Source of the DNA: Methanobacteriota archaeon
GTDB lineage: Archaea > Thermoplasmatota > Poseidoniia > Poseidoniales > Thalassarchaeaceae
Assembly (NCBI GenBank): GCA_002708385.1
Contig: PANM01000038.1
Span: 1 to 39,520 of the forward strand
Length of the DNA: 39,520 nt
Direction: 5' to 3'
Under the pieces are notes generated by a model that saw only the letters and a program-made list of their open reading frames with translations, was not told the DNA's origin and searched no databases. This document shows positions 26 to 35,500 of this stretch, one piece after another. How positions within the stretch are numbered: position 1 is the first letter of the stretch; each line of letters opens with the position of its first letter. A program made the position numbers and the translations under genes.

Positions 26-3000
26 TCACTGTTCGTAAGGTTCCCAAGCACCCGTCAAGACGTTGTGCTTGAGTAGACTTCCATCTGGGTTCTGTACCCA
101 AACATCCCCATTGTCATCACGCCATACTTTCTGACCGTGTTCATTGATTTGTGCATCTGGAGGTGCTTCAATTTTCGGAACTGGTGGTGGAGTATCTGCG
201 AGAAGACTGTCAAGGTCTAATTCATCGACTACTTCAGTTGATTGTATATCAGATTGAGGTTCTGTGAATACTTCTTCATTGACCTCGGACTCTAGAGTTA
301 GATCTACACCAAATTGTTCAGAAGTCAGTGATTCATCCACTGATTCTGTAACTATCTGTTCTGCTGCTTGTAAGTCCAACATAGTAGCGGGGGAGGGTTC
401 TTCTGTTTCAGGTATAGGCTCACTTTCGACTTGGGCTTGGGTATTTTCAAAAAACATACGGTCTTCAGCCGATACTCTAACTTCTACTCCGCCTATCTGT
501 CGAAGCTCATGAGTGCTATCATCAGCCTCAGATTTCTTCTGGCGGCTACCAACACCCATTCGTACGCTAAATCCGATTACTCCAAGAATAATTAAACCGA
601 TAAACAGGTGAACTGCTGCTTGCCCATACGTTTGGTAAAACTTCAGCGTTGGGAAATCATCTGAATTGTCACCAGTTCCATCTCCGTCAGAATCCTGCCA
701 TTCATCGGGATTCTTGGGGAAGGCATCGGGGCCAGCGGTACAAACTCCAGTGACATTGTTAGGGCCATCACAGGTCCCATCTCCGTCGAAATCAGGGATA
801 AGTGGATCTAGTCCAATCTCAGTTTCCTGAAGGTCAGTAATTCCATCACCATCATCATCTTCATCTGTATTATCTCCAATTCCATCTCCATCTGAATCTA
901 GCCACTCTGTTCGATCTAAAGGAAGGTCATCAGTGACATCTGGGAAGCCATCGTTATCATCATCATCATCTTCTTGTGTATCTTCACAACCATCCTGATC
1001 CCAATCATTTCCTTCAACACTAATCCAATTCAACAGTCCATAATCGCATAAATCAGTATAGTCAAGTACCCCATCATTATCATCATCGTCATCCAAGAAA
1101 TTCGGTATATTGTCTCCATCATAATCCTCTCGACAATCTTCAACATTGTCCGAACCCTCGACCAATGTTATTGTTCCTTGAGGGCAAGGTAGTGGTTCTG
1201 TTGCACCTTCGACGTCTACATAGAAATTAATCTCCGCAGGTATCTGTGATTTCGCCCCAGTAGAATTTACGTAGTATCCTAGACTTGCGGGTTTACATTC
1301 AGTCTGTTTAATGATATTTTGGTAACTTCCAACATCACATTCAATTTGATTAGCCGACCCAGATTCAGGAACGTGATAACCTAATTCTGAATCTAAACAA
1401 GAGAGTTTACTATATGACCCAGAATCTGGATTGAATGTTCCTGGCTCACAAGCATTTTGAGTAGAGGAGGCTTGTGTATCAACGTAATGTCCAGGGTCTG
1501 CAATTAAACAAATTGAGCTACCTTCATTCGGCTGGTAATGACCAATGTCACAAGCTTCTTGTAAGCCTGAACCCTCATTTGCAACGAAATAACCTGGACT
1601 TGTATTCATACAATCGTTTGAGGAGGTGGAACCACTTGATGGAAGGAAAGTACCCGCCAAACAAGCAGTTTGAGATGAGGCAAAGTGAGAGTCGACATAG
1701 TAACCAGGTTCAGCTAGAACACAATCAGTGCCTCCTAGATTTTCCTGAAAGGAACCCATCGAACAGCCAATTTGTCCCGTAGCTCCTTCGCTAGGCACAT
1801 GATATCCAGAATCTGCATCTATGCAGCTAGATTGCCCTGGTGCTGGTTGATAGGTTCCTGCAGAACACAAAATTTGTTCTGATGAGCCCGAATTAGGGAC
1901 ATAGTTTCCTGGTTCTGCTGCAAGGCAGTCTGCAGAATTGATCGAACCACTATCTTGGTTGTACGTTCCAGCATTGCAGGCTGTTTGCATTGAAGCCGCT
2001 GGAATATCTACGTAATATCCGGGTGAAGAAGTATCACAACTTGTGGATCCGTAACTGTCTTGCCATGTTCCTACCGAACATGGTAATTGAGCATCCGCAC
2101 CCGGGGTTGGCACGTAATAACCTGGTGCGGCTGAGTCGCAAGCAATTTGCCCCTGATTTGCAGAATAATTACCTGGATTACATTCGATTTGTCCTATTGA
2201 CCCCTGTAAAGGAACAAAATGACCAAAATCTGCAAGTAAACAATCGGTAGCTTGAGTTGCAAGTGCAAATGGATTGTATGAACCAGCAGGGCATGCTAAC
2301 TGAGAAATTGACGCCGGAGTATCAACATAAAAGCCAGGTTCTGCCCCATTACAATCTGATTGACCAGGTAGTGGTTGATAATAACCTGGAACACATGGTT
2401 GTTGGTTTGCTGATCCGGGATCGCCTGTATAATATCCCGAGGAGGTTTGAAGACAACTAATCTGACCACTTGATGGTTGATACTCTCCTGGTGAACATGC
2501 AGTCTGTGAAATTGAAGCATTTGTAGCTACAAAATGTCCTGGCTCAGCGTCCGTACAGGACAATTGTCCACCGTAGGGCTGGAAGGTTCCTAGATGACAT
2601 TGCGTTTGATTCGTTGCACCCTGAATTGGAACATAATGTCCGGCATCAGCTTCCAAACAAACTCTCTGACCTGAAGCAGGCTGATAGGTCCCTACGTTAC
2701 AGATTGTTTGATTCGCCTGGCCAGTAGCTGGAACGTAATACCCAGGACTTGCCGCAAAACATGTAGTTTGAGCTGATGATGGTTGATAAGTTCCTATAGA
2801 ACAGGATGTTTGTGCTGATGATCCTGTTGAATTGACAAAATGCCCTACACCAGCAGCAATTTGATTTGCAGAGCCTGCTTGAGCTACGTAGTAACCTAGA
2901 GCGGAAATTGTGCAATCAGTTTGCCCAGGATAAGTTTGGTAGTAACCTGCAGGACATTGGTTCTGAGAAGTCGCTCCGGAACCGTATACATAATGACCTG

Positions 3001-5131
3001 GAGAGGCCTGATTACAGGAAGAGGAGGCGTCCTGATCTTGCCAGGAACCTGGTGAACAGAGTGTCGAATAAAGAGCCTGCTCGGCGTTTACATGGATCGA
3101 GGTGGATCCTATTGTTACTGCGTTTTCGCCTGTAGATTTTACTTCAATAACTAGATTGTAGTCGTCTGAACCGTTGAAACCTGAGGTGAATGTTACTCGA
3201 ATAAAGTATATCCCTGTAGAATTATTTGCTGAAATTGTCGAGACCTCATCATGAGTATTACTGGTATTGGAAAAATCAATCACATCGAATGATGAATTTA
3301 ACAATTCGATATCGAAGTTTTTTCCAGCCGGAGACGTTAGATTTGCTATGAACCAGGTATTCCTTGATAGATTCAGGAAGAATACGTCGGTGTTGTCTGA
3401 ACTACCTTCGAAAGAACCCGTGTAGTTTGCACTCATTAGAGACAAAGGTACTGCTGTACTGTTTGTAGAACCCGCATCACCCATATCTAGGCTAACAAAG
3501 GAACCTGGGGCAGAGACAATACATGATGATTGACCAATTTCCATGTTGTAATATCCGGTTTCACAAGGGGTTTGTGAAATTGAGGCAGATAAATCAACGT
3601 AATGACCGGCGGATGCGTCCAAACAATCAGATTGACCACTGAACGGTTGAAATGTGCCAGGGTCACAGGAATATTGTATCAAGCCACCTGATGCGTAATG
3701 CCCCTCTTCTGCATCTAAACATGATAGTCTTCCATATTGACCTTCGTCACAATCTAACCATCTGACAGGGTTATTTGGATAATTTTCGTCTGAATCTATA
3801 ACTCCATCGCCATCAAGATCCCCAGTTTGGTGAGTATCGAAAATATTACGAATTCCATCGCCATCAAAGTCTTGATCTGAATATGCAACTTGCCCCCCAT
3901 CATTGAATGTCAATTCAAACGGAATGAGTTTTGAGTCTGTAGTATTGTCAAACTCTCCAGATTGGGCTCCCCAACATTTCAATGAATAGTCCGACAAAAT
4001 TGCACAAGTGGAATAATATCCCGCAGCTGCTGATATTACTGTCAAACCTGGCCCTAGATTTACATTAGCAATAGGATCACCCTCAGCTGGGAAGATATTT
4101 TCGGAATTACAATTTGGATTGGTTGTTGAGGCGCAGGTTCCGTCTCCTAATTGTCCGTTTGAATTTATACCCCAACATTGCATAGAACCATTGTTGGTAA
4201 CCACACATGCGTGACTACCAATACCATCCAGCATAATAGCAGTGGCATTATCTCCCAAGTCTATGAGATACAAGTTTGAAGATACTGGCCCATTATCGGA
4301 AAATACAGTGAATTTGCTACCCCAACAACCAACTGAACCATTTTCAAAAATTACGCAGGTTGATCTCGCCGAGGTGATTATTGATACGGCCCGAAGACCT
4401 GTGGAATGATTCGATAAGATTGGAATGAGGGAATCATTTGTTGTGCCATCCCCGAGTTGCCCTCTAATATTTAGCCCCCAACACATAACATCGCCGTTAT
4501 GGGTAATCACACAGGTATAATCATCTCCTGCCGAAACTGCAACCGCGTCAACTCCAATGCCAAGATTTATCTCGACTGGAGCAGCCCTGTTCGTAGTGGT
4601 ATTATCTCCAATTTGGCCATGGTGGTTACGACCCCAACACCATAGACTTGCGTCAATTAAAATTGCACATGTATGTTCTTTACCCGAATCGACTAATACA
4701 GGGTGCTGATTAAAATTAACGTAACCTTCCGTTAAGTCATTATTTGCCAGACCTAATTGACCATAACCATTCGAACCCGAACAATACATTGAGTAATTGA
4801 ATAAAATTGAGCATCTACCTGAAGTTGAAATCAACGAACCCTCAGTGTAGATTGGATTTCCTTCTGACCATTTGACTGAAGTTCCATTATTGAGAATAAC
4901 CAATGGGCCGCTATTTGTCACATCCAATACTGAATTTGAGAAAATTGTACTAGATTCTGAACCATTGATATTAATTGATGAAGTATCGTTAGTCGTGAAT
5001 GATTGAACCCTAGGTTCGCCCAGTTCTAAATTTTCCTTATCCGGATCAGAAAGAAAACCCAATATTGGTACGGCGAGAAATAAAAGGCAAATCCCTAGAG
5101 CAACGATTCTCTTCATTTCAGCATTCTCCAT
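26..5131 (-). CDS. Giant single-pass cell-surface protein: signal peptide, RCC1-like repeats, ~20 GCC2/GCC3 (ephrin-receptor-like) Cys repeats, PPC-like domain, TSP3 Ca-binding repeats, TM helix, acidic cytoplasmic tail
   Basis: ORF 26..5191; likely start at ATG 5131 or 5116 (MKRIVALGICLLFLAVPILG signal peptide). RCC1 motifs (CWGRNHHGQIGD, CWGLNIRGQLGDG), 34-aa CxxGxYQxxxGQxxC repeats, DxDxDG repeats, TM AAVHLFIGLIILGVIGFSV. Confidence 0.85.
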   Translation of the reverse strand: MENAEMKRIVALGICLLFLAVPILGFLSDPDKENLELGEPRVQSFTTNDTSSININGSESSTIFSNSVLDVTNSGPLVILNNGTSVKWSEGNPIYTEGSLISTSGRCSILFNYSMYCSGSNGYGQLGLANNDLTEGYVNFNQHPVLVDSGKEHTCAILIDASLWCWGRNHHGQIGDNTTTNRAAPVEINLGIGVDAVAVSAGDDYTCVITHNGDVMCWGLNIRGQLGDGTTNDSLIPILSNHSTGLRAVSIITSARSTCVIFENGSVGCWGSKFTVFSDNGPVSSNLYLIDLGDNATAIMLDGIGSHACVVTNNGSMQCWGINSNGQLGDGTCASTTNPNCNSENIFPAEGDPIANVNLGPGLTVISAAAGYYSTCAILSDYSLKCWGAQSGEFDNTTDSKLIPFELTFNDGGQVAYSDQDFDGDGIRNIFDTHQTGDLDGDGVIDSDENYPNNPVRWLDCDEGQYGRLSCLDAEEGHYASGGLIQYSCDPGTFQPFSGQSDCLDASAGHYVDLSASISQTPCETGYYNMEIGQSSCIVSAPGSFVSLDMGDAGSTNSTAVPLSLMSANYTGSFEGSSDNTDVFFLNLSRNTWFIANLTSPAGKNFDIELLNSSFDVIDFSNTSNTHDEVSTISANNSTGIYFIRVTFTSGFNGSDDYNLVIEVKSTGENAVTIGSTSIHVNAEQALYSTLCSPGSWQDQDASSSCNQASPGHYVYGSGATSQNQCPAGYYQTYPGQTDCTISALGYYVAQAGSANQIAAGVGHFVNSTGSSAQTSCSIGTYQPSSAQTTCFAASPGYYVPATGQANQTICNVGTYQPASGQRVCLEADAGHYVPIQGATNQTQCHLGTFQPYGGQLSCTDAEPGHFVATNASISQTACSPGEYQPSSGQISCLQTSSGYYTGDPGSANQQPCVPGYYQPLPGQSDCNGAEPGFYVDTPASISQLACPAGSYNPFALATQATDCLLADFGHFVPLQGSIGQIECNPGNYSANQGQIACDSAAPGYYVPTPGADAQLPCSVGTWQDSYGSTSCDTSSPGYYVDIPAASMQTACNAGTYNQDSGSINSADCLAAEPGNYVPNSGSSEQILCSAGTYQPAPGQSSCIDADSGYHVPSEGATGQIGCSMGSFQENLGGTDCVLAEPGYYVDSHFASSQTACLAGTFLPSSGSTSSNDCMNTSPGYFVANEGSGLQEACDIGHYQPNEGSSICLIADPGHYVDTQASSTQNACEPGTFNPDSGSYSKLSCLDSELGYHVPESGSANQIECDVGSYQNIIKQTECKPASLGYYVNSTGAKSQIPAEINFYVDVEGATEPLPCPQGTITLVEGSDNVEDCREDYDGDNIPNFLDDDDDNDGVLDYTDLCDYGLLNWISVEGNDWDQDGCEDTQEDDDDDNDGFPDVTDDLPLDRTEWLDSDGDGIGDNTDEDDDGDGITDLQETEIGLDPLIPDFDGDGTCDGPNNVTGVCTAGPDAFPKNPDEWQDSDGDGTGDNSDDFPTLKFYQTYGQAAVHLFIGLIILGVIGFSVRMGVGSRQKKSEADDSTHELRQIGGVEVRVSAEDRMFFENTQAQVESEPIPETEEPSPATMLDLQAAEQIVTESVDESLTSEQFGVDLTLESEVNEEVFTEPQSDIQSTEVVDELDLDSLLADTPPPVPKIEAPPDAQINEHGQKVWRDDNGDVWVQNPDGSLLKHNVLTGAWEPYEQ

Positions 5132-5187
5132 ATGGCTTGGCGCACTTACAGAGATTATGACTATTACCTTTAACTGAACAAGTTGCA

Positions 5188-6969
5188 TCATACCTTAAGC
5201 ACCTTTAATGCTAGTCCGTAAGACTGTACTCCCACCTCCGTTAATACCTCCTCTACGTCTGAAAAGGCAGGTTCAAGGGAATTTCTAGAGGCCTTTGCCC
5301 GATTTGAAACTATACGCCAGGCTGCTTTGCTACCGATTCCAGGAATTGCTTCAAGCTGAGATTGAGTCGCGGTGTTAATCGATAATCTAGATTCAACTCC
5401 ACTTATGCTTCTCATTCCATGCCCAGTTACTATGATGTCAGATTTTGTTTCTAGGGGAATTTGATATGGCGTACCTACCAATATTGGATAGGCACCAATC
5501 TGTCTCCCAAAAGTAATTCCAGAACTGCCATAAATCGAAACATCTCTGTGAATTTTTTGCAACACTTGTTCAGGTCTTCTGATTCGATCATCATGAGCTT
5601 CCCACCAAACTCCTTTGAGTTCAGTACCAATTGGAAACATTTCTTTTAGAAGTGGTTTATCGATTTCCTCTCGCACTCTTTTCTTGAATTCTTGAAATAT
5701 ATCTTGAGGGATTTCTTGGAAGCCCAATCCTTCGACCTGTCTAATGTTGATTCGTCGCAGCCATAGACCCTCTGATCTGAGGCTATCAAGTAATTGCATA
5801 TTGATTCCATAGGACCTCTTTGTTTCCCCGTTTAGGCCAGCGATGAAATTGAGTCCCGGCAATAATTTCGGCAGCCCTCGTTGTCCCGATTCTCTTCCAA
5901 ATTCATTGATATGGCGAATAGCAACCTTGAGCTGTTCCGTATTGCAATTTAGCCAATTTTCATGATGAACTAGGGGGTCAGCCGATTCGAGCCCAAATGA
6001 GAGTACTGCTCCATCAGATAAAGTAGAAATCAGAGTTCTAGTTATTTCAGATGCGGGTTCTAAATTCTCGGCAATAATAGAAGGATTGGCATTATCGACA
6101 TGCAGTATATCCAATCTTTCATCTTCTCTTAATCCATGTAACACTTGGGCAATCGGTTCTGGGTCAGGGATAGGATATTCTAATTCTACAACACCTTCGG
6201 CTTTGTAGGTATAGATATCAGTAGCGCCTCCTATTCTAACATGATTTACTCCATTATCCAGAGCCGTGGTGATTTCAGTAATTACTTCATTTTCGTCCCT
6301 AAAAATTGGAACTCCTTTCTTTGGCTCAATACAGAATTTGCAACCCCTTTTGTACCTCACACAGCCTTGATACAGTTCAACCTCATAGGTTAGAGGACCA
6401 GGACGACCATCTTCGGTGATTAAATCTGGATGACTTGTGACGCATTTCCCTTCAGCACCTGCTTTCGCCCAAGTATTCCACTGGTCAGCTGTTCTTCGCT
6501 TGTGGGACCACTCCCCTGTGCTTAGGAAATAGGCCAAGGTGGCATCTGTATCCTGAACTGCACAAAATAATTCAGTTCGCAGAGGCATCCAGCCATCATA
6601 GCGCCAATGACGAATTGCCCAGCCACCTGTGAGAACTGGTTGTTCCCTTGGGAATATCGAAAGGAATTCGTCTAATTCTCTACGTGAAATAGGAGTTCCG
6701 CGAACGTACTTACCAGGCACTATTGCACCTGCTAAAACTACTGCACCGTCAAGTTCGGAAAGTTGTTTTTTCAGTATTTCTCTATCCGATGAATTTGACA
6801 GCTTTTTTTTATGTTGCAGCCTCCAGTCATCAATTGTCATATATGTGTATTCTAACCCTCTGGATTCAAGCACTCCACAGATATATCTGACGTGGAATCC
6901 AAGATAATTTGGCACCCCAAAAGCAGCGGGTTCATCCTCATATCCATCAAGGACCAACCAGCCTTCCAT
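5188..6969 (-). CDS. Radical SAM protein with C-terminal TRAM-like and helix-hairpin-helix domains (COG1031-like)
   Basis: N-terminal LDGYEDEPAAFGVP, cluster motif CVRYKRGCKFC, GLESAD, HhH motif INTATQSQLEAIPGIG. Confidence 0.85.
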   Translation of the reverse strand: MEGWLVLDGYEDEPAAFGVPNYLGFHVRYICGVLESRGLEYTYMTIDDWRLQHKKKLSNSSDREILKKQLSELDGAVVLAGAIVPGKYVRGTPISRRELDEFLSIFPREQPVLTGGWAIRHWRYDGWMPLRTELFCAVQDTDATLAYFLSTGEWSHKRRTADQWNTWAKAGAEGKCVTSHPDLITEDGRPGPLTYEVELYQGCVRYKRGCKFCIEPKKGVPIFRDENEVITEITTALDNGVNHVRIGGATDIYTYKAEGVVELEYPIPDPEPIAQVLHGLREDERLDILHVDNANPSIIAENLEPASEITRTLISTLSDGAVLSFGLESADPLVHHENWLNCNTEQLKVAIRHINEFGRESGQRGLPKLLPGLNFIAGLNGETKRSYGINMQLLDSLRSEGLWLRRINIRQVEGLGFQEIPQDIFQEFKKRVREEIDKPLLKEMFPIGTELKGVWWEAHDDRIRRPEQVLQKIHRDVSIYGSSGITFGRQIGAYPILVGTPYQIPLETKSDIIVTGHGMRSISGVESRLSINTATQSQLEAIPGIGSKAAWRIVSNRAKASRNSLEPAFSDVEEVLTEVGVQSYGLALKVLKV

Positions 6970-7049
6970 CCAAACCCTCGAGTGTTCGAATTACTGATTG
7001 GTCTTCACGACTTCGCTATTCAAGAGTAGATATCTTGAGAAATTATCCT

Positions 7050-8324
7050 CTATCGACGATTGCGATTGCGATTTCGATTTCCTTTTCCACGGCCTCTACC
7101 GCCGCCATCATTAGATTCTTGAACACTAATTTTTCTTCCACGAATTTCGGTACCATCGAGTTCCTTAATCGCCTTTTCACCGGCTATTCGGCTAGCAAAT
7201 TTCACGAAAGCAAATCCTCGAGATTTTCCTGTATCTCTGTCCTTTGCAATGCTGCATTCTGTTATTTCCCCGTGTGTTGAAAATAGATTCTTGAGGTCTT
7301 CTTCACTCGCCTCAAAGGAAAGCCTTGCGACAAAGAGTTTGATTCCCGCTGCCTCTGCTGCCTGTGAACGAGCTTTGGTAAGAACTTCTCTTTCTGCTGC
7401 GAGTTCTTCCTTTGTTGCCTTTCCGTCATTCACCTTATCCATGCAATCCTTGCATCGGACTGGCTTACCTGGTGTGGGCTCAAATGGAACTGTAGTATCG
7501 GTTCCACAAAGTGTACACTTGCACTCATGCTTGATGCGTTGACGGCCACCTGAGCCTCCTTTTCCGGTAATTGCAGAACGAATCCTCACTGCTGCGGGTG
7601 GAGCCTTGTGATTAGGCCCACGACGATGGTCAGCCATGGGGGAAAGATACGGTCTAGCTCCTTCATGACCAAGATTGCCCTCAGCTTCCGGAGACCATCT
7701 TTCCCCTGCCCTATTCAATTCCTGTATATCCTTACCAAGAGTATGACCGTGGCCAAAACCATTTGATAATGCCCTGTATCCAGAATAATCGCATCTATTA
7801 CATACCACATTGAAGTCTTGGTTCTTGTCAGATGTTGTCAATTCATTCCCACATGCTGGACAAATTGCCCATAAGACTCCTAATTCAGGAGAGCCTCGTG
7901 TACTCGCTTTCAGGTTAGGTTCCAATTGTGTTATTCTAGCGCGAATCAAATCCCTAGTTCGCATTGCATCCCCTGGTGAAGGTAGGAATCTATCGACAAT
8001 TTCAGTTACGAAGATATCCGCGAATAAATTGTCAGCAATCAAATCTCTGTGTCCACCTTCTTTTTCGGTGTGTAGAATACGAATCATTACCACTTTAGGC
8101 ATTAATTTGACAACTTCCGCAATAACCTCATCTCCGATTTCTGGAGAATTCGTATTGGGACGATTCGATTTAATCGAGATTATCTCTCCATCCGAAATTA
8201 TCGTCCCACTGACCAATGCAATTGCACCAACATCAGACTCTGAAAGTCCGGGACCAATAGCGGTGCCTGATGGCACTTCTACTTGATTTCCTGGTGTGAC
8301 AAAGTCCCCAGTTGCAGCACTCAT
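7050..8324 (-). CDS. csl4: Exosome RNA-binding protein Csl4 fused to CxxC-x17-CxxC zinc finger, RRM domain and RG/RN-rich tail
   Basis: N-terminal FVTPG, S1 domain (PEIGDEVIAEV...DLIRARI), LGVLWAICPACG...CNRC zinc ribbon; then CTLC-x17-CKDC; RNP2 KLFVARL and RNP1 RGFAFVKF; tail GRGRGKGNRNRNRNRR. Confidence 0.85.
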   Translation of the reverse strand: MSAATGDFVTPGNQVEVPSGTAIGPGLSESDVGAIALVSGTIISDGEIISIKSNRPNTNSPEIGDEVIAEVVKLMPKVVMIRILHTEKEGGHRDLIADNLFADIFVTEIVDRFLPSPGDAMRTRDLIRARITQLEPNLKASTRGSPELGVLWAICPACGNELTTSDKNQDFNVVCNRCDYSGYRALSNGFGHGHTLGKDIQELNRAGERWSPEAEGNLGHEGARPYLSPMADHRRGPNHKAPPAAVRIRSAITGKGGSGGRQRIKHECKCTLCGTDTTVPFEPTPGKPVRCKDCMDKVNDGKATKEELAAEREVLTKARSQAAEAAGIKLFVARLSFEASEEDLKNLFSTHGEITECSIAKDRDTGKSRGFAFVKFASRIAGEKAIKELDGTEIRGRKISVQESNDGGGRGRGKGNRNRNRNRR

Positions 8325-8399
8325 TGTGACCGGCGACCGAACTACTCCCTATGAACGGTCCGGCCGTGCGTAGCACGGTTAATTGGAGAATAAAATCAA

Positions 8400-9014
8400 T
8401 TACTCAGGGGGCTTTAATCTCCAAAATGCAACCTTTGTTTTTCCTCGACTACTTGAGTGGTGAGTATAGACAGCTGGGAGAGGAAATTCAGTTTCCCAAT
8501 ATCGGTTAACTGTCCATCCTTTCGATTCGAAATAGGGTTCAACATGAGTTGCTTTAGCGCTGTGCATAAGGTGACAAATGGAATTAGAACGAATGATCAC
8601 ATCAAAAAAAGTGCGATCTGATTTAGCGACTTGAGTACCCCAAGGCGGGTTAGAAATTATCAAATCTACGCCGGATAAATCTAAGTTTTCATCGACATTT
8701 TGCATCATAAGCTCGACATTTTCTGAAACACCCACCTGTTCAATCGATTGGAAGGCGCTATTGCAGGCATCTTCATCCAATTCAATCAATAGCACTTGTT
8801 CTATTCCCATCAGAGCAGCACCTATTCCCAGAACCCCGTTTCCAGCACCTAGGTCTACAATTTTTGAATCAGAAGTCATATCACCAAATGTTGCTATTTG
8901 GCTTAACCAAGATGCTGCTATATCTCCCGGTGTAGAATATTGTTCTAACTCAAGCCTTCCACAGGGATGAGGAGGTAGAGAGGAGAGAAGCATGGCTAGT
9001 TGCCGTTGTCGCAC
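8400..9014 (-). CDS. METTL5-like (COG2263) N6-adenine RNA methyltransferase
   Basis: LEQYSTP, SAM-binding DLGAGNG, catalytic NPPW, C-terminal YTHH typical of this family. Confidence 0.85.
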   Translation of the reverse strand: MRQRQLAMLLSSLPPHPCGRLELEQYSTPGDIAASWLSQIATFGDMTSDSKIVDLGAGNGVLGIGAALMGIEQVLLIELDEDACNSAFQSIEQVGVSENVELMMQNVDENLDLSGVDLIISNPPWGTQVAKSDRTFFDVIIRSNSICHLMHSAKATHVEPYFESKGWTVNRYWETEFPLPAVYTHHSSSRGKTKVAFWRLKPPE

Positions 9015-17754: not shown

Positions 17755-17774
17755 TGGCTCTACTTGTAGAGCCA
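17755..17774. repeat. Perfect 9-bp inverted repeat ending on the A of the S8 protease start codon
   Basis: TGGCTCTAC-TT-GTAGAGCCA. Confidence 0.75.
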
Positions 17775-20700
17775 TGGCAGAGAAGCCACTAGACCTCAGG
17801 CCACTAGTCTTAGTGGTGATGATTCTAATCATGGATATGGGGATTGGAGTATCCGCATCTCCAATCATTCAAAATGAAGAATTAATTAGTCAAGAAAGAC
17901 CCGAAAATTGGCCTCCTGCCCTAATTTGTGGGGATACAGAATGTGAACCAATCGATCGTTCAACTCGAGAACCCCCTTTCGATGCAGGATTCCCGGTGGA
18001 GGAAGAGGGTTGGTGGTTTGGCTATTGGTATGATTTGGACTCAAATGGAATGGATGATAGATTACAAAGAATCATCGCGGGCCAGCGTCAATCTGTCTCC
18101 CCCACAGCAATTATTGGATTGGATGGAAAACCCACAGTCGCAATAGTCGTAGATTATGCTTGGCATCCCGGTGATAGCGATAAATCTGCCCTAAAGGATG
18201 TTCTGGAGTCTCATGGCTGGGATCAAGATGGATCTTGGTTCTTCGAGATGGATATTCTAGACAGTATAGTTCTGGACCATGTGCCAGTTAGTGCTTTAAT
18301 CGAGATCTGGCAATTAGACGGGGTTGTCATGGTTGAGGAACAAAATGTAATTGTTCCATTTCTTGATACTGCCACTAGAGGCTCAAAGGTAAGAGATTCA
18401 GAACGTTATGATGAAACCATGCGAGATTTCGGTTACGATGGCTCAGGAGTTGTTATCGCAATTCTAGACACAGGAGTTGATAATGAGCATTTCTCACTAG
18501 ATGACTTCTCTGACCAAAATGACGACAATGAGAATGATCCAGAAGATTTGCCAGATCCCAAATGGGTTGCTGGTTGTGATGCTACATCCCTCAATCAAAA
18601 CGAGTGCAGCAATGAAGGGACGTATGACCCAGATGACGGAGATGGTCATGGAACCCATGTTGCTGGGATTGCCCTAGGGACGGGTGATTCTAGGCGAATA
18701 AATCAGGGATATGCACCAGGGTCCTATCTAGTTGATGTCAAAGTAATGACCGATACAGGTGGAACAAATTCTGCTGCTACTTTGAAAGGTATCAATTGGG
18801 TAGTCGCGAACGTCGAAACCGACTGGGGGAACAATGATTCAAGCGAAGGAATACAAGTTATGTCCATGTCATTTGGAAGTCTTGGGGACCCAAATGGAGA
18901 CGACCCCGGAGATAACGGATCGGCTGCTGATGCTAGGGCGGTCAATCAAGCAGCAGAGGCTGGAATTGTACCAGTTGCTGCCATCGGGAATGATGGGCGA
19001 AGAAGAGTAACATCAGTTGGTGCTGCAGATCAGGCAATTACAGTCGGAGCGATTGATGACAAGGACACCATAGACAGAGGGGATGATTCTATTGCTTCTT
19101 ATTCTAATTCAGGGCCAAGAGAAAGTGACGGAGATAGCGATGAAGATGAGGAATTGAAACCTGATGTAGTAGCACCGGGTTCTGACATGATGTCTGCAAG
19201 ACACGCAGAATCCTCAAGTCAAATTCCAGGAACGCCAAAGCCCTTGGCAGAGGATAGCTACCATGAATTGAGTGGGACAAGTATGGCTTGTCCCGCGGTT
19301 GCTGGCTTGGTCGCGGTGATACTACAGATAAGTCAGGAAGAAGGACTTGATCTTGATCCTGCTGAAGTTAAGGAGATACTAAGAGAAAATTCCGAGCCAA
19401 GGGGTGAGGCCTCAGAACCGGATATTTCGGACACTTGGAATGACAGGTATGGATTTGGAATAATTGATGGAAATAGAATTGTTTCTGCATTACTTGGGGA
19501 TGGTGGAGGCGGAGACCCGGGTGATAATACAACTGAGCCTCCTCCGCCTGGCGAAGGCGATTGGTTAGTTTTTGAACGCCCTCTTGAAGATTCTTGGCTG
19601 GTTGAAGGAGAGACCTATTCGGTGAGAGGACATGTTGATGATGAAGCCAAAACAAATGGTACCATCGAGGAGATTCAGGTCAAGATTGCTTATACTTACA
19701 AACCAGAAGGTTCACCCACTCAAGAAGAGATACTCGTAGATTGGCATACAGCTCAAGGAACTGTAAATTGGACTACAGAATTTACCATTCCAGATTTCGA
19801 AGAGGATGAGATTAATGCCTTGGAAATCAAAATCTCAGTACAGGCACGTAACGAATGGGATCAATGGAGCGACATACAAAAAAGAACTCACGAAATTGGC
19901 AGGGTCACATTGACTTTAGACAGCCCGAGTGGACAAAATTCAGTTGTAGGCGATGTGCAATTCGAAGGAGAATATGAAACTGTAAATGGCGGTACTATCC
20001 AATGGAGAATTGGGAAAGAAGATTGGGTTGATGCCCGAACCTATTTTGGTTCAGGAGGAACTACTGATATGTTCAGTTTTTCTTGGGACTCGACTGAACA
20101 TCCGGATGGCTCTCAACGTATTTCATTACGCTTTGTTAGCGGAACCGGAGTGCGCTCAGAAGAAGTCAGAGTCACATTAGAAATCGACAATCAACCGCCA
20201 GCTCCTGACTTGATGTTCAGAAGCGGACTAACTGTTTCCGAATGGGGAATTCCTATGTCTGAAACATTCGTTAATTCCTTTGTTGAAGTTAGTACGGAAA
20301 TCAGAAATGATGGCGACCAATCCGCCACCAATGTTGTGGTTTTTCTCCTTGAAGAAGGAACTAGAAAACACGAACTAACTATTCCTTCTATAGACTCCGG
20401 AGATATTGTTCAATTGACTCATTACTGGAACCCACTTGTAGTTGGTAAACGCCAACTAACGGTCGCTCTGGACCCCGGTGATGCGATTTTTGAAATCGAT
20501 GAAACAAATAACGATCAGAGTATAGAATTTGATGTTATTCAGAGACCCGAAGGGGTTGACTTATCTTTCCCCAACGGAGCATTCACAACAACTCCAATAA
20601 TTCCAAGACCAGGTGAACAATTCCAAATTAATGCTCGAATTACAAATTTAGGTTCATTCAGGGCGGAGGAAATTGAAGCGCAACTTCATCTGTACACAAA

Positions 20701-32508: not shown

Positions 32509-32564
32509 CGATGTTATAGCGGGTTGAAGCGGGGCTTGAACCTGTCCTATTGCTGAGGTGCGTC

Positions 32565-35500
32565 ATGTTGAGTTACTTGAAGCCACATTCAAAGCCAACA
32601 ACTTCGTTGTTGTTGATATGGTTGATGCTGGGTTCTCTGATGTTACCAATGGTCGGAGCGAGTAGCGAATCCGGTAACGAAGAAATTCCCTCTCAATTCG
32701 GTGATCTAAGCGGTTTCACTCCCGAACAGGATGGTCATGCATATATTTTCAATGATGAACAAAATCCAGTTTATTCGGCATTTGGCTATCTAAAAAAGCA
32801 GTGGATTGAAAATGGATATCCGAATTTAATCGACCCTTTTGCGGCTTCTTCCCAGAACTCACGGTCTAGCAATGGCACTTGTTCAAATGCATGGCAAGTC
32901 GATGACACGGACACCTTTTCCACATCTAGTGGGTTAGTTTCAGCCACAGTAAAGAAAATATCTGCAAGCTCGGCTATTTTTGTAGAGGATGGAGTAGTGA
33001 TTCCCTCAACAACACTCAATGACATAACATCGACTTGGGAATCGACAATTTACCCAACAGATACTACCTACTTTGGTACCGCTCCTGATGTGGACAATAA
33101 TTGTCAGATTGAAATCCTAATTTTCCAAATCGATGGCGGAGGTGGCATTGGAGGTTATTTCGACCCCAACGTTGCCAATCAAAGAGAAATTATGTTTGTT
33201 GATTCGGGTGATTTAAGTTGGAGAAATACGATTATTGCTCATGAGTTTCAACATCTTCTTCACAACGCAAGAGATCCATTCGAGTACATTTGGTTAGATG
33301 AAGGGGCTGCTGATATGGCAGCCTACCTCTGCTTTGGCGTGACCAACACCATCTCAGGGCATGCAAATGAATGGTCGCAAAATGCCAATATGAGTGTTCG
33401 TTGGTGGAATCAAAGAATAGCAGATTATGGTGGAAGTTTCATGTTTGTGATGTATTTAGCCGACAAACTTGGAGGAGGTATAGCGATATCTAGACTGGTT
33501 GCCGACACTGCTACTGGCGGAGTTGGAGTTGAGAATTTAGCAAGAAACCCTGAACCCGGTTCAACTGCAATTGGAACCACCATGTCGGATATTTTCGCTA
33601 ATTTCACTGCCGCAGTCAGCCTCGATAGTGCCCAAGGTGCATTTGGATTTTCAAATATCGCAATGACCGCGGGATGTGTTACAGGATTTATTTGCAAAGT
33701 ACAAATGAGTGGCTATCAAGATCAATGGCAATCGACCTGGGTTAGTCCTTCACAAGAACTTGAGGGATGGGGAATGAGGGCTTACAAGTTTGCGGGAGGA
33801 ACTGGAGCTCCTCTTAATTTAATGGTTCAACCAACCAATTTTGGAGTCACTGGAACTGTAATGATCAAAGATTCTGCAACCGGAAGCTGGACGATGGATA
33901 GATTGAGAATTGATTCTGCAACCGGAGCGGGTACGGCCTTAGTTCACGGATTTGGCAACACATCGAGTGAAGTTTGGGTAATTGTTTGGTATGAGTCTCA
34001 AGTTACCGACTGTGATTACAACTTCGCTAGTTGTGGTATTACAACCGGCTCTTATCCAACTACAGATATCGTAGTCCAAGCGGGGCTGATTACAAGTCCA
34101 GCAGAAGTAGATATAATCAAAGTTACAACTTTCGATAGAGATGAAAATAATCTAGACGATAGTGTCCAAATCGATTTACAGGTCACCTCAGATGCATTCT
34201 TTGAGATTATTGAGGTTACATTTGAGGCCTTTGTCAATAATACATTACGTGATTCAATAACATTCTCGATGACTGCAGGTAATAGTGTCCCGAACCCAGA
34301 ATCAATTTGGTTTACTCCGCCTGAAAGTGGGGATTGGACTTTTGGAGTGGACATTAGAGATGTAAGTGGAGAGATTACAGATACTGCATTCACTCTTCCA
34401 ATTGCACTTGGGAATATGGAACCAGTAGCAAGTGGGTCCACATCAACTGGAACTACTCAAACATGGCTACCAGTAAACTTCTTTGGTGGTGGATACGATG
34501 TCTGGGGATTTGGTCAGATTAACGGTTCTTATGGACATAATCAAACACCAATGGCCTACAACTGGGATTTAGGAGACAACACCACTTCAAGCCTAAAGAA
34601 TCCAATTCATTACTACAATGAGACTGGCACCTACAATATTCAACTAAACGTAGTAGACATTGGTGGATTCTATTCTCAAACTCAAACATGGATAGTAAAT
34701 GTAACAGATACAACAGAGCCAATTCCAGAGATTCAGGTCGACGGAGTCCCGATAAGCGATGAAATTGTAATTTTCACAGACCAAAGGGTACTTTTCTCTG
34801 CTAGAGGCACATTAGATAACGTACCCCATGATGAAATTGAGTTCACATGGAATTGGGGAGATGGAAATGACGAATCAGGTGTTGGACTAGTTGAAGCCAG
34901 CCATGCTTATGTCGATGGTAGCGCTGAAGGAACAGTTTACACTTTGACTTTGATAATTAATGACGGGACTTTTGTGGTGGAAGAGCAAATATATGTTAGA
35001 ATCTTGAATCGTATACCTCGACAAATTTTCGATGAGGAGTTACAAACATACACCCTAACTCCTCTCCAAATGCCAGATGTTTTCACAGATGATGACGGAA
35101 TAATTGTAGAATACCGATGGGATTTTGATACAGGAGTTAATTTCTCCACAGGAGGTATGACGCCCACTTCTGACTTCTCCCAGACTATTTCTGTTGACCA
35201 AAATCCAACTGTTGGATGGAATACACCTGGTATGAAAACGATAACTCTTGAAGTTACAGATGACGATGGCAATACATCCTCGACCACAATAATGGTTCGT
35301 GTATTGAATCAGAGGCCAGTTGCAGTATTCGATCGCCCTTCTGATGGAACAGTTGAAACTGAATACTTCTTCGAGAGCTTATCCTTCGATCCCGATGGAG
35401 ATACCTCTCTCCTAGAGACTCGATGGGAGATTTCAAATTTGGAAGAAGAAATTGTCAATTCATCATCGATTTACTATACATTCACAGAACCAGGATTGTA

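What the first reader, a model, noticed from the sequence alone, without database searches (positions are those of the whole stretch)
7050..8324. Exosome cap Csl4 fused to a CxxC-x17-CxxC finger, an RRM and an RG/RN tail: a built-in RNA-targeting adaptor
Seen: after a complete Csl4 (N-terminal domain, S1, Zn ribbon; about aa 1-185) the ORF continues without a stop through a Gly/Arg linker into CTLC-x17-CKDC (7443-7517), a canonical RRM with RNP1/RNP2 (about 7115-7343) and GRGRGKGNRNRNRNRR. Known: archaeal Csl4 is normally under 200 aa, RRMs are uncommon in archaea, and eukaryotic exosomes are directed to substrates by separate RRM/Zn-knuckle adaptors (RBM7-ZCCHC8 in NEXT, Air1/2 in TRAMP). Inference: this lineage may have covalently attached a substrate-selection module to the exosome, a convergent analogue of eukaryotic adaptors.
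Basis: partly seen in the sequence, partly recalled or inferred. Interest (0 to 1): 0.8.

Follow-up and report, generated by a model that had tools for sequence, protein, structure and literature searches.

The report
Exosome cap Csl4 with RNA-binding arm
In Marine Group II ocean archaea the only gene for Csl4, a lid protein of the RNA-degrading exosome, is permanently extended by a zinc finger, an RRM domain and an arginine-rich tail that probably form a built-in arm for catching RNA; the function is untested.

Summary
ORF 7050-8324(-) encodes 424 aa: a complete Csl4 (N-domain, S1, four-Cys Zn ribbon), a conserved 42-aa extension, a Gly/Arg linker, a CxxC-x17-CxxC finger, a helix, one canonical RRM and an RG/RN tail.

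It is not a chimera. The same architecture occurs in 48 of 49 family genomes. The sister family Poseidoniaceae carries Csl4 plus two RRMs in 76 of 77. DNA contigs from two independent studies span the gene. The folded add-ons are as constrained as the Csl4 core.

In sister orders of the class, Csl4, the RRM and the finger are separate small genes, and Csl4 sits behind the same methyltransferase gene. The fusion is therefore the Csl4 orthologue. Rrp4-Rrp41-Rrp42 are present in this genome.

Best reading: up to three flexible RNA-binding arms per exosome that capture and hold single-stranded RNA at the entry pore. An engineered S. solfataricus Csl4 with an RNA-binding domain on its C-terminus behaves this way (PMC4227792). 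Substrate selectivity is not shown.

New here: a two-finger variant without an RRM, RGG-only tails on Csl4 in other Thermoplasmatota, and a fast-evolving DnaG C-terminal domain in the same order.

My searches found no paper on it. This scan has reported the same fusion at least 15 times on other genomes.

The parts
7050..8324 (-). Whole gene: Csl4 with C-terminal RNA-binding arm, 424 aa; stop codon at 7050-7052
   Evidence: ORF list and translation. Single match in the own genome. Full-length orthologues in 21 of 24 genomes of the genus.
8145..8324 (-). Csl4 N-terminal domain, about aa 1-60; boundary approximate
   Evidence: NF034126 profile starts at aa 7. Aligned to 2ba1_A from chain residue 2. 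Invariant V9, P11, G12. AF2 pLDDT 37-62 in model 1 and 67-85 in model 2.
7875..8144 (-). S1 domain of Csl4, about aa 61-150; boundary approximate
   Evidence: Beta strands with pLDDT 82-92 in AF2 model 1. Covered by the Csl4 profile and by 2ba1_A.
7746..7874 (-). Csl4 Zn-ribbon domain, aa 151-193, with C155, C158, C175, C178
   Evidence: The four Cys are invariant in 34 sequences of three families. Coordinates. Stand-alone Csl4 proteins of sister orders end at the equivalent of aa 193.
7620..7745 (-). Conserved Poseidoniales-specific extension, aa 194-235 (LN..G.RW...AE motif); unknown role
   Evidence: G207, R209, W210, E215, D232 invariant across f1, f2, f3. Mean identity 0.77 within f1-type proteins, the highest of all regions. 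dN 0.03-0.08 against 0.09-0.11 for the core. pLDDT 83-86 up to about aa 215 in model 1 but under 50 in model 2. No Atlas lead.
7539..7619 (-). Gly/Arg-rich flexible linker, aa 236-262
   Evidence: pLDDT under 50 in both models. Mean identity 0.46. Fastest dN together with the tail.
7434..7538 (-). CxxC-x17-CxxC zinc finger, aa 263-297 (TIGR04272 / PF23477)
   Evidence: Both models above their cut-offs. C270, C273, C291, C294 invariant in 39 f1-type sequences. Hairpin plus helix with pLDDT 70-86 in model 2. Zn binding shown for M. mazei small proteins of this family (PMC12704099, passages).
7341..7433 (-). Helical connector, aa 298-328 (KEELAAEREVL...)
   Evidence: Helix 305-326 in both AF2 models, pLDDT 74-86 in model 2. 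Mean identity 0.68.
7116..7340 (-). RRM domain, aa 329-403, with RNP2 KLFVAR and RNP1 RGFAFVKF
   Evidence: RRM_1 75 bits. Beta-alpha-beta-beta-alpha-beta fold with pLDDT 82-89. Fold matches to solved RRMs with TM about 0.9 normalised by target length and rmsd about 1 A. F331, G370, F371, F373 invariant in f1-type proteins.
7053..7115 (-). Basic RG/RN tail, aa 404-424; net charge +7
   Evidence: Composition. pLDDT under 50. Length and sequence vary among orthologues.
8400..9014 (-). Upstream neighbour: small MTS-family methyltransferase, 204 aa; a conserved partner in gene order, not part of the protein
   Evidence: PF05175, 49.8 bits. A homologue lies directly upstream of Csl4 in 14 of 14 loci examined, including 4 stand-alone Csl4 loci of sister orders.
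5188..6969 (-). Downstream neighbour: 593-aa protein with a helix-hairpin-helix motif
   Evidence: Only HHH_3, just under its cut-off (26.6 against 27); no NCBIfam family. Homologue downstream of the fusion in 10 of 10 Poseidoniales loci; not seen in the 4 short sister-order loci.

Best explanation
The gene encodes this archaeon's only Csl4, the cap subunit that sits on the Rrp41/Rrp42 phosphorolytic ring of the exosome. Its C-terminus carries a tethered RNA-binding arm: a conserved 42-aa segment, a flexible Gly/Arg linker, a C4 zinc finger, a helix, an RRM and a basic tail.

Proposed mechanism. The Csl4 N-domain anchors the protein to the ring and the S1 domain lines the entry pore. The arm leaves from the peripheral Zn ribbon. 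An exosome with one to three Csl4 subunits therefore carries one to three flexible arms. Each arm has three weak, largely sequence-tolerant contacts for single-stranded RNA (finger, RRM, RG tail). The arms raise the local concentration of RNA 3' ends at the pore and hold the substrate during phosphorolytic decay or A-rich tailing.

Shown: the gene, its domains, its conservation, its orthology to Csl4, and the presence of the core genes.

Inferred: assembly into the exosome, RNA binding by the arm, and its effect on activity.
For: Identity. Csl4 profile match over 178 of 180 positions. Profile hit and best fold hit to solved Csl4 2ba1_A. Four invariant ribbon cysteines.

Orthology. One match in the own genome. 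The same methyltransferase gene is upstream in 14 of 14 loci, including stand-alone Csl4 loci.

Partners. Consecutive Rrp4, Rrp41 and Rrp42 genes on contig C16, each the best NCBIfam hit over its full length.

Reality of the fusion. Full-length architecture in 21 of 24 genus genomes and 48 of 49 family genomes. Csl4 plus two RRMs in 76 of 77 Poseidoniaceae genomes. 270 database proteins at E<=0.001. DNA contigs of two independent studies cover 6900-8376 without a gap.

Selection. Against the closest orthologue, omega is 0.10 for finger+helix, 0.10 for the RRM and 0.16 for the extension, against 0.11 for the core. In the 10 other comparisons their dN is mostly no higher than the core's. Region identities are 0.67-0.77, against 0.73 for S1.

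RNA-binding competence. Canonical RNP1 and RNP2 aromatic residues are invariant. The RRM fold is confident.

Modularity. The arm occurs as finger+RRM, RRM+RRM, a single RRM, or finger+finger. Other Thermoplasmatota put plain RGG tails on the same C-terminus. This argues that the position serves generic RNA binding.

Experimental precedent. In S. solfataricus the DnaG RNA-binding domain fused to the C-terminus of Csl4 gave a chimeric Csl4 with strong poly(A) binding, and the exosome reconstituted with it degraded A-rich RNA faster (PMC4227792, abstract and passages).

RNA libraries. Metatranscriptome contigs at 99% identity or more cover parts of both halves of the gene.
Against: No binding or activity data exist for this protein or any orthologue.

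The window's protein scores 82.1 bits on NF034126, under the curated 90, and Pfam sees none of the Csl4 domains.

Own-genome Rrp4, Rrp41 and Rrp42 are also under their curated cut-offs (140.8 of 200, 305.1 of 318.7, 228.9 of 280), so the whole machine is divergent.

The N-domain is modelled with low confidence in model 1.

The conserved extension is confident in one AF2 model and not in the other, and its role is unknown.

The RNA contigs are short, come from one study, do not bridge the Csl4/arm junction, and DNA carry-over cannot be excluded.

Relatives still encode DnaG, so an adaptor already exists and the arm's added value is unclear.

Some RRMs bind proteins rather than RNA.

The fusion was not found in 3 of 24 genus genomes (65-79% complete range), in G102 (f1, 93% complete) or in G033 (f3, 93% complete).
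Confidence: 0.62

Rival explanations
1. Selective adaptor. The finger and RRM recognise a particular RNA class or sequence, for example A-rich tails, pre-rRNA or rRNA fragments, and so decide what the exosome degrades, as NEXT, TRAMP or DnaG do.
For: DnaG and Rrp4 give the S. solfataricus exosome a poly(A) preference, and DnaG targets rRNA (PMC3672285 and PMC4227792 abstracts). The folded modules are highly conserved within the family (0.67-0.73 identity). The gene sits behind a small MTS-type methyltransferase in all 14 loci, which fits a link to stable-RNA metabolism.
Against: The modules are swapped between families: RRM+RRM, finger+RRM, finger+finger, a single RRM. RGG-only tails occupy the same place elsewhere. 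This is hard to reconcile with one conserved specific target. The nearest RRM relatives by profile are small glycine-rich general RNA binders (NF058537, CIRBP-type and plant GR-RBP chains). No specificity data exist.
Confidence: 0.2
2. RNA chaperone arm. The RRM and RG tail mainly melt secondary structure so that structured RNA can thread into the narrow S1 pore. They would substitute for a helicase, as small cold-induced glycine-rich RRM proteins do in bacteria and plants.
For: The RRM is of the small glycine-rich type (NF058537, 81.5 bits; solved CIRBP, RBM3 and GR-RBP chains among the sequence hits). One source names orthologues 'cold-inducible RNA-binding protein'. Free RRM proteins of sister orders carry RGG tails. 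The organisms live in cool sea water according to the labels of the runs that hold the gene.
Against: The names are automatic transfers, not data. Nothing here measures unwinding. This rival overlaps with the best explanation rather than excluding it.
Confidence: 0.1
3. Protein-interaction or regulatory arm. The extension docks other factors (DnaG, ribosome, Sm-like proteins), gates the pore as an auto-inhibitor, or drives condensate formation through its RG-rich segments.
For: The 42-aa segment at aa 194-235 is the most conserved part of the add-on and has no RNA-binding signature. The DnaG C-terminal domain, reported as the exosome-binding part (PMC4227792 passages), evolves about twice as fast as the rest of DnaG between this order and a sister family: 0.24 identity against 0.50 and 0.49. 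A short helical motif recurs at different places in the arm in all families.
Against: The RRM keeps every canonical RNA-contacting aromatic residue. The finger and RG tails are typical nucleic-acid binders. No partner has been identified.
Confidence: 0.06
4. Artefact. The ORF is an assembly chimera or a mis-joined pair of genes, or the protein no longer works in the exosome.
For: The genome is a 75%-complete, 45-contig assembly. Some database entries show the halves as separate short proteins: 115 aa starting at an internal Met of RRM2, and a 193-aa partial Csl4.
Against: The same reading frame is found in more than 120 genomes of two families. Independent DNA assemblies cover it. All folded parts are under purifying selection. 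It is the only Csl4 homologue found and occupies the Csl4 position in gene order. The short database entries match internal pieces of a 487-aa fusion at over 90% identity and look like truncated gene calls.
Confidence: 0.02

Closest known systems
Canonical archaeal Csl4 (A. fulgidus Csl4 in PDB 2BA1/3M7N/3M85; NCBIfam NF034126)
   Same: N-domain, S1 domain and four-Cys Zn ribbon in the same order. Profile alignment covers chain residues 2-177 of 179, and it is the best fold match. It is the sole copy in the genome, and the Rrp4/Rrp41/Rrp42 genes are present.
   Different: 231 extra C-terminal residues carrying two folded RNA-binding modules. Canonical proteins end at the equivalent of aa 193. 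Sequence is divergent: 24% identity in the fold alignment, and 82.1 bits against a cut-off of 90.
DnaG-Csl4 exosome of Sulfolobus solfataricus and the engineered Csl4-NT fusion (Hou et al. 2013, 2014; PMC3672285, PMC4227792)
   Same: An RNA-binding module is brought to the exosome through Csl4. In the engineered protein it is fused to the Csl4 C-terminus, exactly where the natural arm starts, and it changes RNA binding and decay (abstracts and passages).
   Different: There the natural adaptor is a separate protein with a different fold (DnaG N-domain plus TOPRIM), and the fusion was man-made. Here the fusion is natural, uses a finger, an RRM and an RG tail, and coexists with a DnaG gene in relatives.
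Eukaryotic exosome adaptors NEXT (RBM7-ZCCHC8-MTR4) and TRAMP (Air1/2-Trf4/5-Mtr4) (recalled; only review titles were seen in the listing)
   Same: An RRM and/or a zinc module delivers RNA to an exosome that has a Csl4/Rrp4-type cap.
   Different: These are separate polypeptides organised around the Mtr4 helicase and, in TRAMP, a poly(A) polymerase. Their knuckles are CCHC, not CxxC-x17-CxxC. There is no homology beyond the RRM fold. Nothing here shows helicase involvement or selectivity.
Bacterial PNPase (RNase PH-type ring with KH and S1 domains fused in cis) (established knowledge, recalled)
   Same: A phosphorolytic ring whose RNA-capturing domains are covalently attached and flexible, three per ring.
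   Different: In PNPase the RNA-binding domains are fused to the catalytic chain and are KH and S1 domains. Here the extra modules sit on a separate cap subunit that already has an S1 domain.
Small free RRM-RGG and CxxC-x17-CxxC-RGG proteins of other Thermoplasmatota
   Same: The same two module types, each with RG-rich segments. RRM open frames are 80-158 aa and most finger open frames are 47-220 aa.
   Different: They are free-standing genes elsewhere. In Thalassarchaeaceae the single RRM and single finger found per genome are the ones on Csl4.

Membership tests
Archaeal Csl4 exosome cap subunit | Sequence match to the curated Csl4 model (NF034126) over its full length | tested here: inconclusive
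   Full-length alignment (profile 1-178 of 180), E 4.2e-23, but 82.1 bits against the curated 90. Orthologues in f3 and f2 score 97.9 and 102.5, and one f2 protein 89.0. A profile built from 34 orthologues hits solved Csl4 2ba1_A at E 1.8e-26.
Archaeal Csl4 exosome cap subunit | Three-domain fold: N-terminal domain, S1 barrel, C-terminal four-Cys Zn ribbon | tested here: met
   The best Foldseek hit of the AF2 model is 2ba1_A (E 1.5e-11, TM 0.67 normalised by target length, 170 columns), followed by eukaryotic Csl4 chains. C155, C158, C175 and C178 are invariant.
Archaeal Csl4 exosome cap subunit | Sole Csl4 orthologue, in the conserved Csl4 gene neighbourhood | tested here: met
   One match to the protein in the own genome. 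The MTS methyltransferase is upstream in 14 of 14 loci, including 4 stand-alone Csl4 loci. Caveat: the genome is 75% complete.
Archaeal Csl4 exosome cap subunit | Exosome core partners (Rrp41, Rrp42) and the second cap subunit (Rrp4) encoded in the genome | tested here: met
   Consecutive genes on C16. Each is the best NCBIfam hit over its full length, though under the curated cut-offs: 305.1 of 318.7, 228.9 of 280, 140.8 of 200.
Archaeal Csl4 exosome cap subunit | Physical assembly on the Rrp41/Rrp42 ring | not testable with these tools
   Needs reconstitution or co-purification.
RRM (PF00076) | Profile match above the gathering score, RNP1 and RNP2 with aromatic residues, beta-alpha-beta-beta-alpha-beta fold | tested here: met
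   75 bits against 20.7. KLFVAR and RGFAFVKF are present. Secondary structure and pLDDT of 82-89. Solved RRMs match at TM about 0.9 normalised by target length.
CxxC-x17-CxxC finger (TIGR04272 / PF23477) | Profile match above cut-off; two CxxC pairs 17 residues apart | tested here: met
   41.4 against 36 and 39.6 against 27. The spacer is 17 residues. The four Cys are invariant in 39 sequences.
CxxC-x17-CxxC finger (TIGR04272 / PF23477) | Zinc binding | not testable with these tools
   Shown by ICP-MS for two M. mazei small proteins of the family (PMC12704099, passages); not shown for this protein.
Eukaryotic NEXT/TRAMP-type exosome adaptor | Separate cofactor complex built on the Mtr4 helicase, with a CCHC zinc knuckle and/or RRM subunit | tested here: not met
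   The modules are in cis on Csl4, and the finger is C4 of the CxxC-x17-CxxC type. A helicase partner was not searched for. The resemblance is functional at most.
DnaG-type archaeal exosome adaptor | DnaG N-domain and TOPRIM fold docking on Csl4 through the DnaG C-terminal domain | tested here: not met
   The arm has no DnaG-like domain. DnaG is a separate gene in relatives and was not found in this 75%-complete genome.

The most novel reading that the evidence does not exclude
Poseidoniales have rebuilt how the exosome acquires substrates. The ancestral free RGG-tailed RRM and CxxC-x17-CxxC proteins, still separate genes in sister orders, would be exosome cofactors that were captured in cis on Csl4. 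This is a Rosetta-stone link that would assign a function to two widespread families of small archaeal proteins. The finger would be an RNA-binding module interchangeable with an RRM, as the finger+finger, finger+RRM and RRM+RRM variants suggest. The conserved 42-aa segment together with the fast-evolving DnaG C-terminal domain would mark a re-wired or partly replaced DnaG docking site.
Probability: 0.22. Interest if true: 0.72.

Novelty: new variant of a known kind. Interest (0 to 1): 0.57.

Why it matters
Marine Group II archaea are among the most abundant archaea of the surface ocean and remain uncultured (established knowledge). Their RNA turnover machinery is known only from sequence.

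How archaeal exosomes choose and hold substrates is still open. The only known adaptor is DnaG on Csl4.

This lineage offers a natural experiment. The RNA-binding modules are wired into the cap, they were swapped several times, and they exist as free genes in sister groups. Reconstitution with and without the arm could directly test what such modules contribute.

It would also give a first functional context for the CxxC-x17-CxxC small proteins and the small RRM proteins of archaea. It is an independent parallel to the way eukaryotes and bacteria (PNPase) add RNA-binding domains to the same kind of ring.

Practically, databases name these proteins inconsistently: 'CxxC-x17-CxxC domain-containing protein', 'hypothetical', 'cold-inducible RNA-binding protein', 'nucleolin', 'Csl4'. 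Exosome inventories of these genomes can therefore miss Csl4.

Tried and rejected
1. Complex prediction. Csl4 aa 1-245 of relative G024 (alignment A3) was folded with the DnaG of the same genome (alignment A2). Score 0.00 twice, under the mark of 0.32, and the controls were not run. This gives no verdict either way.

2. Atlas search with the conserved extension plus linker (aa 186-262): no usable hit.

3. Idea that the arm replaced DnaG: rejected as stated. DnaG passes its curated cut-off in 109 of 111 class genomes, including 33 of 34 f1 and 56 of 56 f3, and its C-terminal domain still aligns end to end with a sister-family DnaG (36.8% identity). It was not found in the window's own 75%-complete genome, which proves nothing.

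4. Long open frames around Csl4 outside Poseidoniales. Of 9 examined, 5 were only open upstream DNA in G+C-rich genomes, 1 had a 45-aa non-RG extension, and 3 had RG-rich tails. None had an RRM or a finger.

5. Placing the two-finger variant P0127. Its best matches among 401 phylum genomes are Poseidoniales at 31-44% identity, so its lineage stays unplaced.

6. RNA contigs as proof of a single transcript. They are short pieces that do not bridge the junction.

7. The Pfam DUF7351 hit at aa 155-210 (E 0.0045, 17.2 bits against 31.2) was judged a Zn-ribbon cross-match.

8. In one search my script picked an antisense frame for the G063 DnaG. That row was dropped, and one search uses four sequences.

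9. L066 was left out of alignment A2 because of an ambiguous residue.

10. The search for the 2001 comparative-genomics paper on exosome operons did not retrieve it. What I say about it is recalled.
Full report
OBSERVATION

The window is a whole 39,520-base contig (C38) of a 1.14-Mb, 45-contig genome. The genome is 74.9% complete and 0.25% contaminated.

The ORF at 7050..8324 on the minus strand starts with ATG and encodes 424 residues without a stop.
- CTLC at 7517-7506 and CKDC at 7454-7443, with 17 residues between them;
- RNP2 KLFVAR at 7340-7323;
- RNP1 RGFAFVKF at 7220-7197;
- the tail GGGRGRGKGNRNRNRNRR at 7106-7053.

Pfam gives RRM_1 (aa 330-399, 75 bits, cut-off 20.7) and PF23477 (aa 264-297, 39.6 bits, cut-off 27). 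NCBIfam gives TIGR04272 (41.4 bits, cut-off 36) and the Csl4 model NF034126 over profile positions 1-178 of 180. The Csl4 match has E 4.2e-23 but 82.1 bits, against a curated cut-off of 90. Pfam reports none of the Csl4 domains for this protein.

The Csl4 call is secured by other evidence:
- A profile of 34 orthologues hits the solved A. fulgidus Csl4 chain 2ba1_A at E 1.8e-26, covering chain residues 2-177 of 179.
- The AF2 model's best Foldseek hit is the same chain (E 1.5e-11, TM 0.67 normalised by target length), followed by yeast, C. thermophilum and other Csl4 chains.
- Orthologues of two other families pass the curated cut-off, at 97.9 and 102.5 bits.
- The four ribbon cysteines are invariant.

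ANATOMY

I combined two AF2 runs. Model 1 used 34 sequences of three families. Model 2 used 39 sequences of the finger+RRM type only.

- aa 1-60, N-domain.
- aa 61-150, S1 domain. pLDDT 82-92 in model 1.
- aa 151-193, Zn ribbon.
- aa 194-235, a conserved extension with two short helices. It is confident to about aa 215 in model 1 and not confident in model 2.
- aa 236-262, Gly/Arg linker. Under 50 in both models.
- aa 263-297, finger: a hairpin plus a helix, pLDDT 70-86 in model 2.
- aa 305-326, a long helix.
- aa 329-403, RRM. pLDDT 82-89 in both models.
- aa 404-424, basic tail. Under 50 in both models; net charge +7.

Stand-alone Csl4 proteins of sister lineages end at the equivalent of aa 193. 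The add-on is therefore 231 residues long.

IS IT REAL?

With the protein as query, 21 of 24 other genomes of the genus hold a full-length match at 71-94% identity. The three without a match are 73-79% complete.

In a class-wide draw of 151 genomes at least 80% complete:
- 48 of 49 genomes of the same family (f1; source names point to Thalassarchaeaceae) have the whole architecture, down to 48% identity.
- 76 of 77 genomes of family f3 have a Csl4 match followed in the same open frame of about 455-600 aa by two RRM matches.
- Misses: G102 (f1, 93% complete) and G033 (f3, 93% complete).

Translations confirm Csl4+RRM+RRM in f3. In the small family f2, one genome has one RRM (404 aa as listed) and one has two RRMs (485 aa as listed).

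The word-indexed protein search found 270 proteins at E<=0.001. The 120 listed are 57-100% identical to the query and come from NCBI, JGI, ENA, Logan and Tara sources.

DNA contigs from two independent studies cover 6900-8376 with four base differences and no gap. Metatranscriptome contigs from one further study lie at 7018-7265, 7318-7603, 7706-7880, 7932-8101 and 8134-8315, at 99% identity or more. They touch both halves but do not bridge them, and DNA carry-over cannot be excluded.

SELECTION

I compared the window gene with 11 genus orthologues by Nei-Gojobori dN and dS per region.

| Region | omega against the closest orthologue |
|---|---|
| Csl4 core | 0.11 |
| extension | 0.16 |
| linker | 0.37 |
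| finger+helix | 0.10 |
| RRM | 0.10 |
| tail (few sites) | 0.91 |

In the other ten comparisons dS is large or saturated.

| Region | dN range in the other ten comparisons |
|---|---|
| extension | 0.03-0.08 |
| finger+helix | 0.06-0.13 |
| RRM | 0.07-0.11 |
| Csl4 core | 0.09-0.11 |
| linker | 0.16-0.27 |
| tail | 0.17-0.29 |

The folded add-ons are thus mostly no faster than the core, while the linker and tail are faster.

Mean identity to the window protein among 26 f1-type sequences is 0.77 for the extension, 0.73 for the finger, 0.68 for the helix and 0.67 for the RRM, against 0.73 for S1. For alignment A1 I used 25 of the 119 listed database relatives, chosen to span the identity range, plus 8 proteins read from loci.

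ORTHOLOGY AND ORIGIN

The own genome gives one match to the protein.

An MTS-family methyltransferase (8400-9014, PF05175) lies directly upstream. Its homologue is upstream of Csl4 in 14 of 14 loci examined: 10 Poseidoniales loci and 4 stand-alone Csl4 loci of families f4 and f5.

In five genomes of f4 and f5, which belong to sister orders of the same class:
- Csl4 lies in open frames of 186-224 aa in 4 genomes. In the fifth, G047, this query found only the RRM.
- The RRM lies in frames of 101-121 aa in all 5.
- The finger lies in frames of 65-68 aa in the two f5 genomes.

The free RRM and finger proteins themselves carry RGG-rich segments.

Across 301 genomes of the phylum:
- 107 have an RRM.
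- Every listed place outside f1 and f3 is in a frame of 80-158 aa.
- Each of the 22 matching f1 genomes has exactly one match. Of the 46 matching f3 genomes, 45 have two matches and one has three.
- The listed f1 and f3 places lie in the long Csl4 frames.
- One genus genome, G014, also has an 81-aa RRM frame.

The finger is in 178 of 301 phylum genomes, almost always in small frames. It is in 22 of 23 f1 genomes, where it sits on Csl4, in 1 of 47 f3 genomes (a weak match), and in 0 of 8 f4 genomes.

The simplest history is that free small RNA-binding proteins were captured onto the C-terminus of Csl4 at the base of Poseidoniales and then reshuffled.

HOW FAR DOES THE THEME GO?

An exhaustive HMMER search used aa 1-235 against 1.84 billion representatives. 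It found 201 proteins at E<=0.001. Among the 150 listed:
- Ten are 387-487 aa and are the best full-length hits.
- Most of the remaining full-length hits are 180-200 aa.

Pfam on 27 of the listed proteins (the ten long ones and 17 of 229-376 aa) showed the following:
- RRMs in 9 of the 10 long ones: two RRM stretches in 7, one RRM in 1, and one RRM plus a finger in 1.
- One protein, P0127 (460 aa), has Csl4, the same conserved extension, two fingers and a long RGG tail, and no RRM.
- None of the other 17 has an RRM or a finger.

Four of those 17 (P0256, P0193, P0206, P0162) carry roughly 70-130-residue RGG-rich tails directly after the ribbon. Close cluster members of two of them are labelled Thermoplasmatota or Euryarchaeota Csl4.

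In the phylum survey with the Csl4 model, 298 of 301 genomes match. I examined nine of the longest open frames among the non-Poseidoniales matches:
- five were only open upstream DNA;
- one had a 45-aa extension without RG repeats;
- three had RG-rich tails.

The C-terminus of Csl4 is therefore a recurrent attachment point for RNA-binding appendages. Folded modules were found only in Poseidoniales and in the unplaced P0127 lineage, among the genomes searched. P0127's nearest matches in 401 phylum genomes are Poseidoniales, at 31-44% identity.

THE MACHINE AROUND IT

Contig C16 carries consecutive genes:
- Rrp4: 238 aa, NF003181, 140.8 bits, cut-off 200.
- Rrp41: 238 aa, TIGR02065, 305.1 bits, cut-off 318.7.
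- Rrp42: 264 aa, NF003282, 228.9 bits, cut-off 280.

All three are full-length best hits under the curated cut-offs, so the whole complex is divergent in this lineage.

DnaG was not found in this incomplete genome. It passes its cut-off in 109 of 111 class genomes.

In the sister families, 19 of 20 DnaG matches run over model positions 1-413 to 1-419 with 424-514 bits; one is cut by a contig end.

In Poseidoniales the scores are 301-360 bits. In all 33 f1 matches and most f3 matches, the main stretch stops at model positions 269-289. The C-terminal domain appears only as a second stretch of 20-30 bits, or not at all.

Between one f1 DnaG and two f4 DnaGs, identity is 0.50-0.51 in the N-domain, 0.46-0.49 in TOPRIM and 0.24-0.25 in the C-terminal domain. 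Within f4 the figures are 0.74, 0.73 and 0.63 (four sequences, after dropping a wrongly framed fifth).

The C-terminal domain is retained and still aligns end to end. According to Hou et al. 2014 it is the part important for binding the Csl4-exosome (PMC4227792, passages). Its accelerated change in the lineage whose Csl4 C-terminus was rebuilt is suggestive of co-evolution. It is a correlation from few sequences.

MECHANISM

Established knowledge, from the structures behind 2BA1 and from Hou et al. [quoted passage not shown] The chimeric protein gained strong poly(A) binding, and the exosome reconstituted with a cap of this chimera degraded A-rich RNA faster (abstract and passages).

By analogy, I read the natural arm as a fly-casting device. 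One to three arms per exosome, depending on the Csl4:Rrp4 ratio in the cap, each carry a finger, an RRM and an RG tail on disordered linkers. Together they raise the capture and retention of single-stranded RNA at the S1 pore during decay or tailing.

Shown here: domains, conservation, orthology and partner genes.

Inferred: assembly, RNA binding and the effect on activity.

The swapping of modules and the RGG-only versions argue for generic affinity rather than one conserved target. A chaperone role and a protein-docking role for aa 194-235 remain possible.

KNOWN OR NEW?

Public databases hold hundreds of copies with automatic names: 'CxxC-x17-CxxC domain-containing protein', 'hypothetical protein', 'cold-inducible RNA-binding protein', 'nucleolin', 'exosome complex RNA-binding protein Csl4', and 'RNA recognition motif-containing protein/exosome complex RNA-binding protein Csl4'.

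Full-text searches:
- Csl4 + RRM + archaea: 9 papers, by title and abstract start all on eukaryotic exosomes or general reviews.
- Poseidoniales + exosome: 2 versions of one DPANN paper, not read.
- 'RNA recognition motif' + 'Marine Group II' + archaea: 0 papers.
- Csl4 + fusion + 'RNA-binding domain' + Thermoplasmata: 30 papers hold at least three of the four terms, 12 listed.

None of these turned up a description of the natural fusion. I saw listings only, except for the three papers cited by passages or abstract. Supplementary tables were closed and may list the gene.

This scan has already reported the same fusion on other genomes at least 15 times. Those notes agree with what I found independently before reading them.

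I file the finding as a new variant of a known kind: a true Csl4 with a lineage-specific, modular RNA-binding arm.

VERDICT

Interest is moderate to high for RNA-decay and archaeal biology. The decisive work is biochemical.

Noticed in passing
Relatives' DnaG loci, e.g. L040 (G024:C1:127248-128081 region) and L042 (G031:C3): The DnaG C-terminal domain, reported as the exosome-binding part, scores only 20-30 bits or nothing against the archaeal DnaG model in Poseidoniales. Sister families match end to end (424-514 bits). Domain identity between f1 and f4 is 0.50 (N-domain), 0.49 (TOPRIM) and 0.24 (C-terminal domain).
   Followed up: partly
G000:C45:6602-6985 region (L006:4210-5037, minus strand): Besides Rrp41 and Rrp42, this archaeal genome encodes a 275-aa bacterial-type RNase PH (TIGR01966, 246.5 bits against a cut-off of 141.5).
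   Followed up: partly
Protein P0127 (460 aa, on a 3.0-Mb ENA contig): A Csl4 with the same conserved extension, but with two CxxC-x17-CxxC fingers, a very long RGG tail and no RRM. Its lineage could not be placed: best matches are Poseidoniales at 31-44% identity.
   Followed up: partly
L052 (G193:C86), L053 (G306:C63), L051 (G182:C115); proteins P0256, P0193, P0206, P0162: Csl4 proteins of other Thermoplasmatota families carry RG/RGG-rich C-terminal tails of roughly 65-130 residues and no folded add-on.
   Followed up: partly
window 7380-7420 (aa 302-315) and the C-termini of f2/f3 proteins (L019-L023, L027) and of P0127: A short helical motif recurs. It is K-A-T-K-E-E-L-A-A-E-R-E after the finger here, K-S-S-R-E-L-Q-A-L-R-E-E at the far C-terminus of the two-RRM forms, and a similar R-E-A-A-A-R-R-E-E in P0127. 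It may be a shared docking peptide. Unexplained.
   Followed up: no
window 5188-6969 (-): A 593-aa protein with only a near-threshold helix-hairpin-helix match and no NCBIfam family lies directly downstream of the Csl4 fusion. It is there in 10 of 10 Poseidoniales loci (60-80% identity).
   Followed up: partly
window 8347-8378: A 32-base stretch in the Csl4-methyltransferase spacer has several-fold higher contig depth in two DNA runs, and long contigs end there with loose ends. This suggests a short repeat or a strain-variable junction.
   Followed up: no
window 26-5191 (-), 17774-22576 (+), 32550-36674 (+): Three very large proteins: 1721 aa with RCC1 repeats and ephrin-receptor-like domains; 1600 aa with an S8 subtilase and CARDB; 1374 aa with PKD domains. 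They are likely surface or secreted proteins.
   Followed up: no
Database proteins P0304 and P0306 (115 aa) and P0305 (193 aa): Entries named 'RNA-binding protein' begin at an internal Met of the second RRM of a 487-aa Csl4 fusion. A 'hypothetical protein, partial' is its Csl4 half. These look like truncated gene calls that hide the fusion in some MAG annotations.
   Followed up: partly
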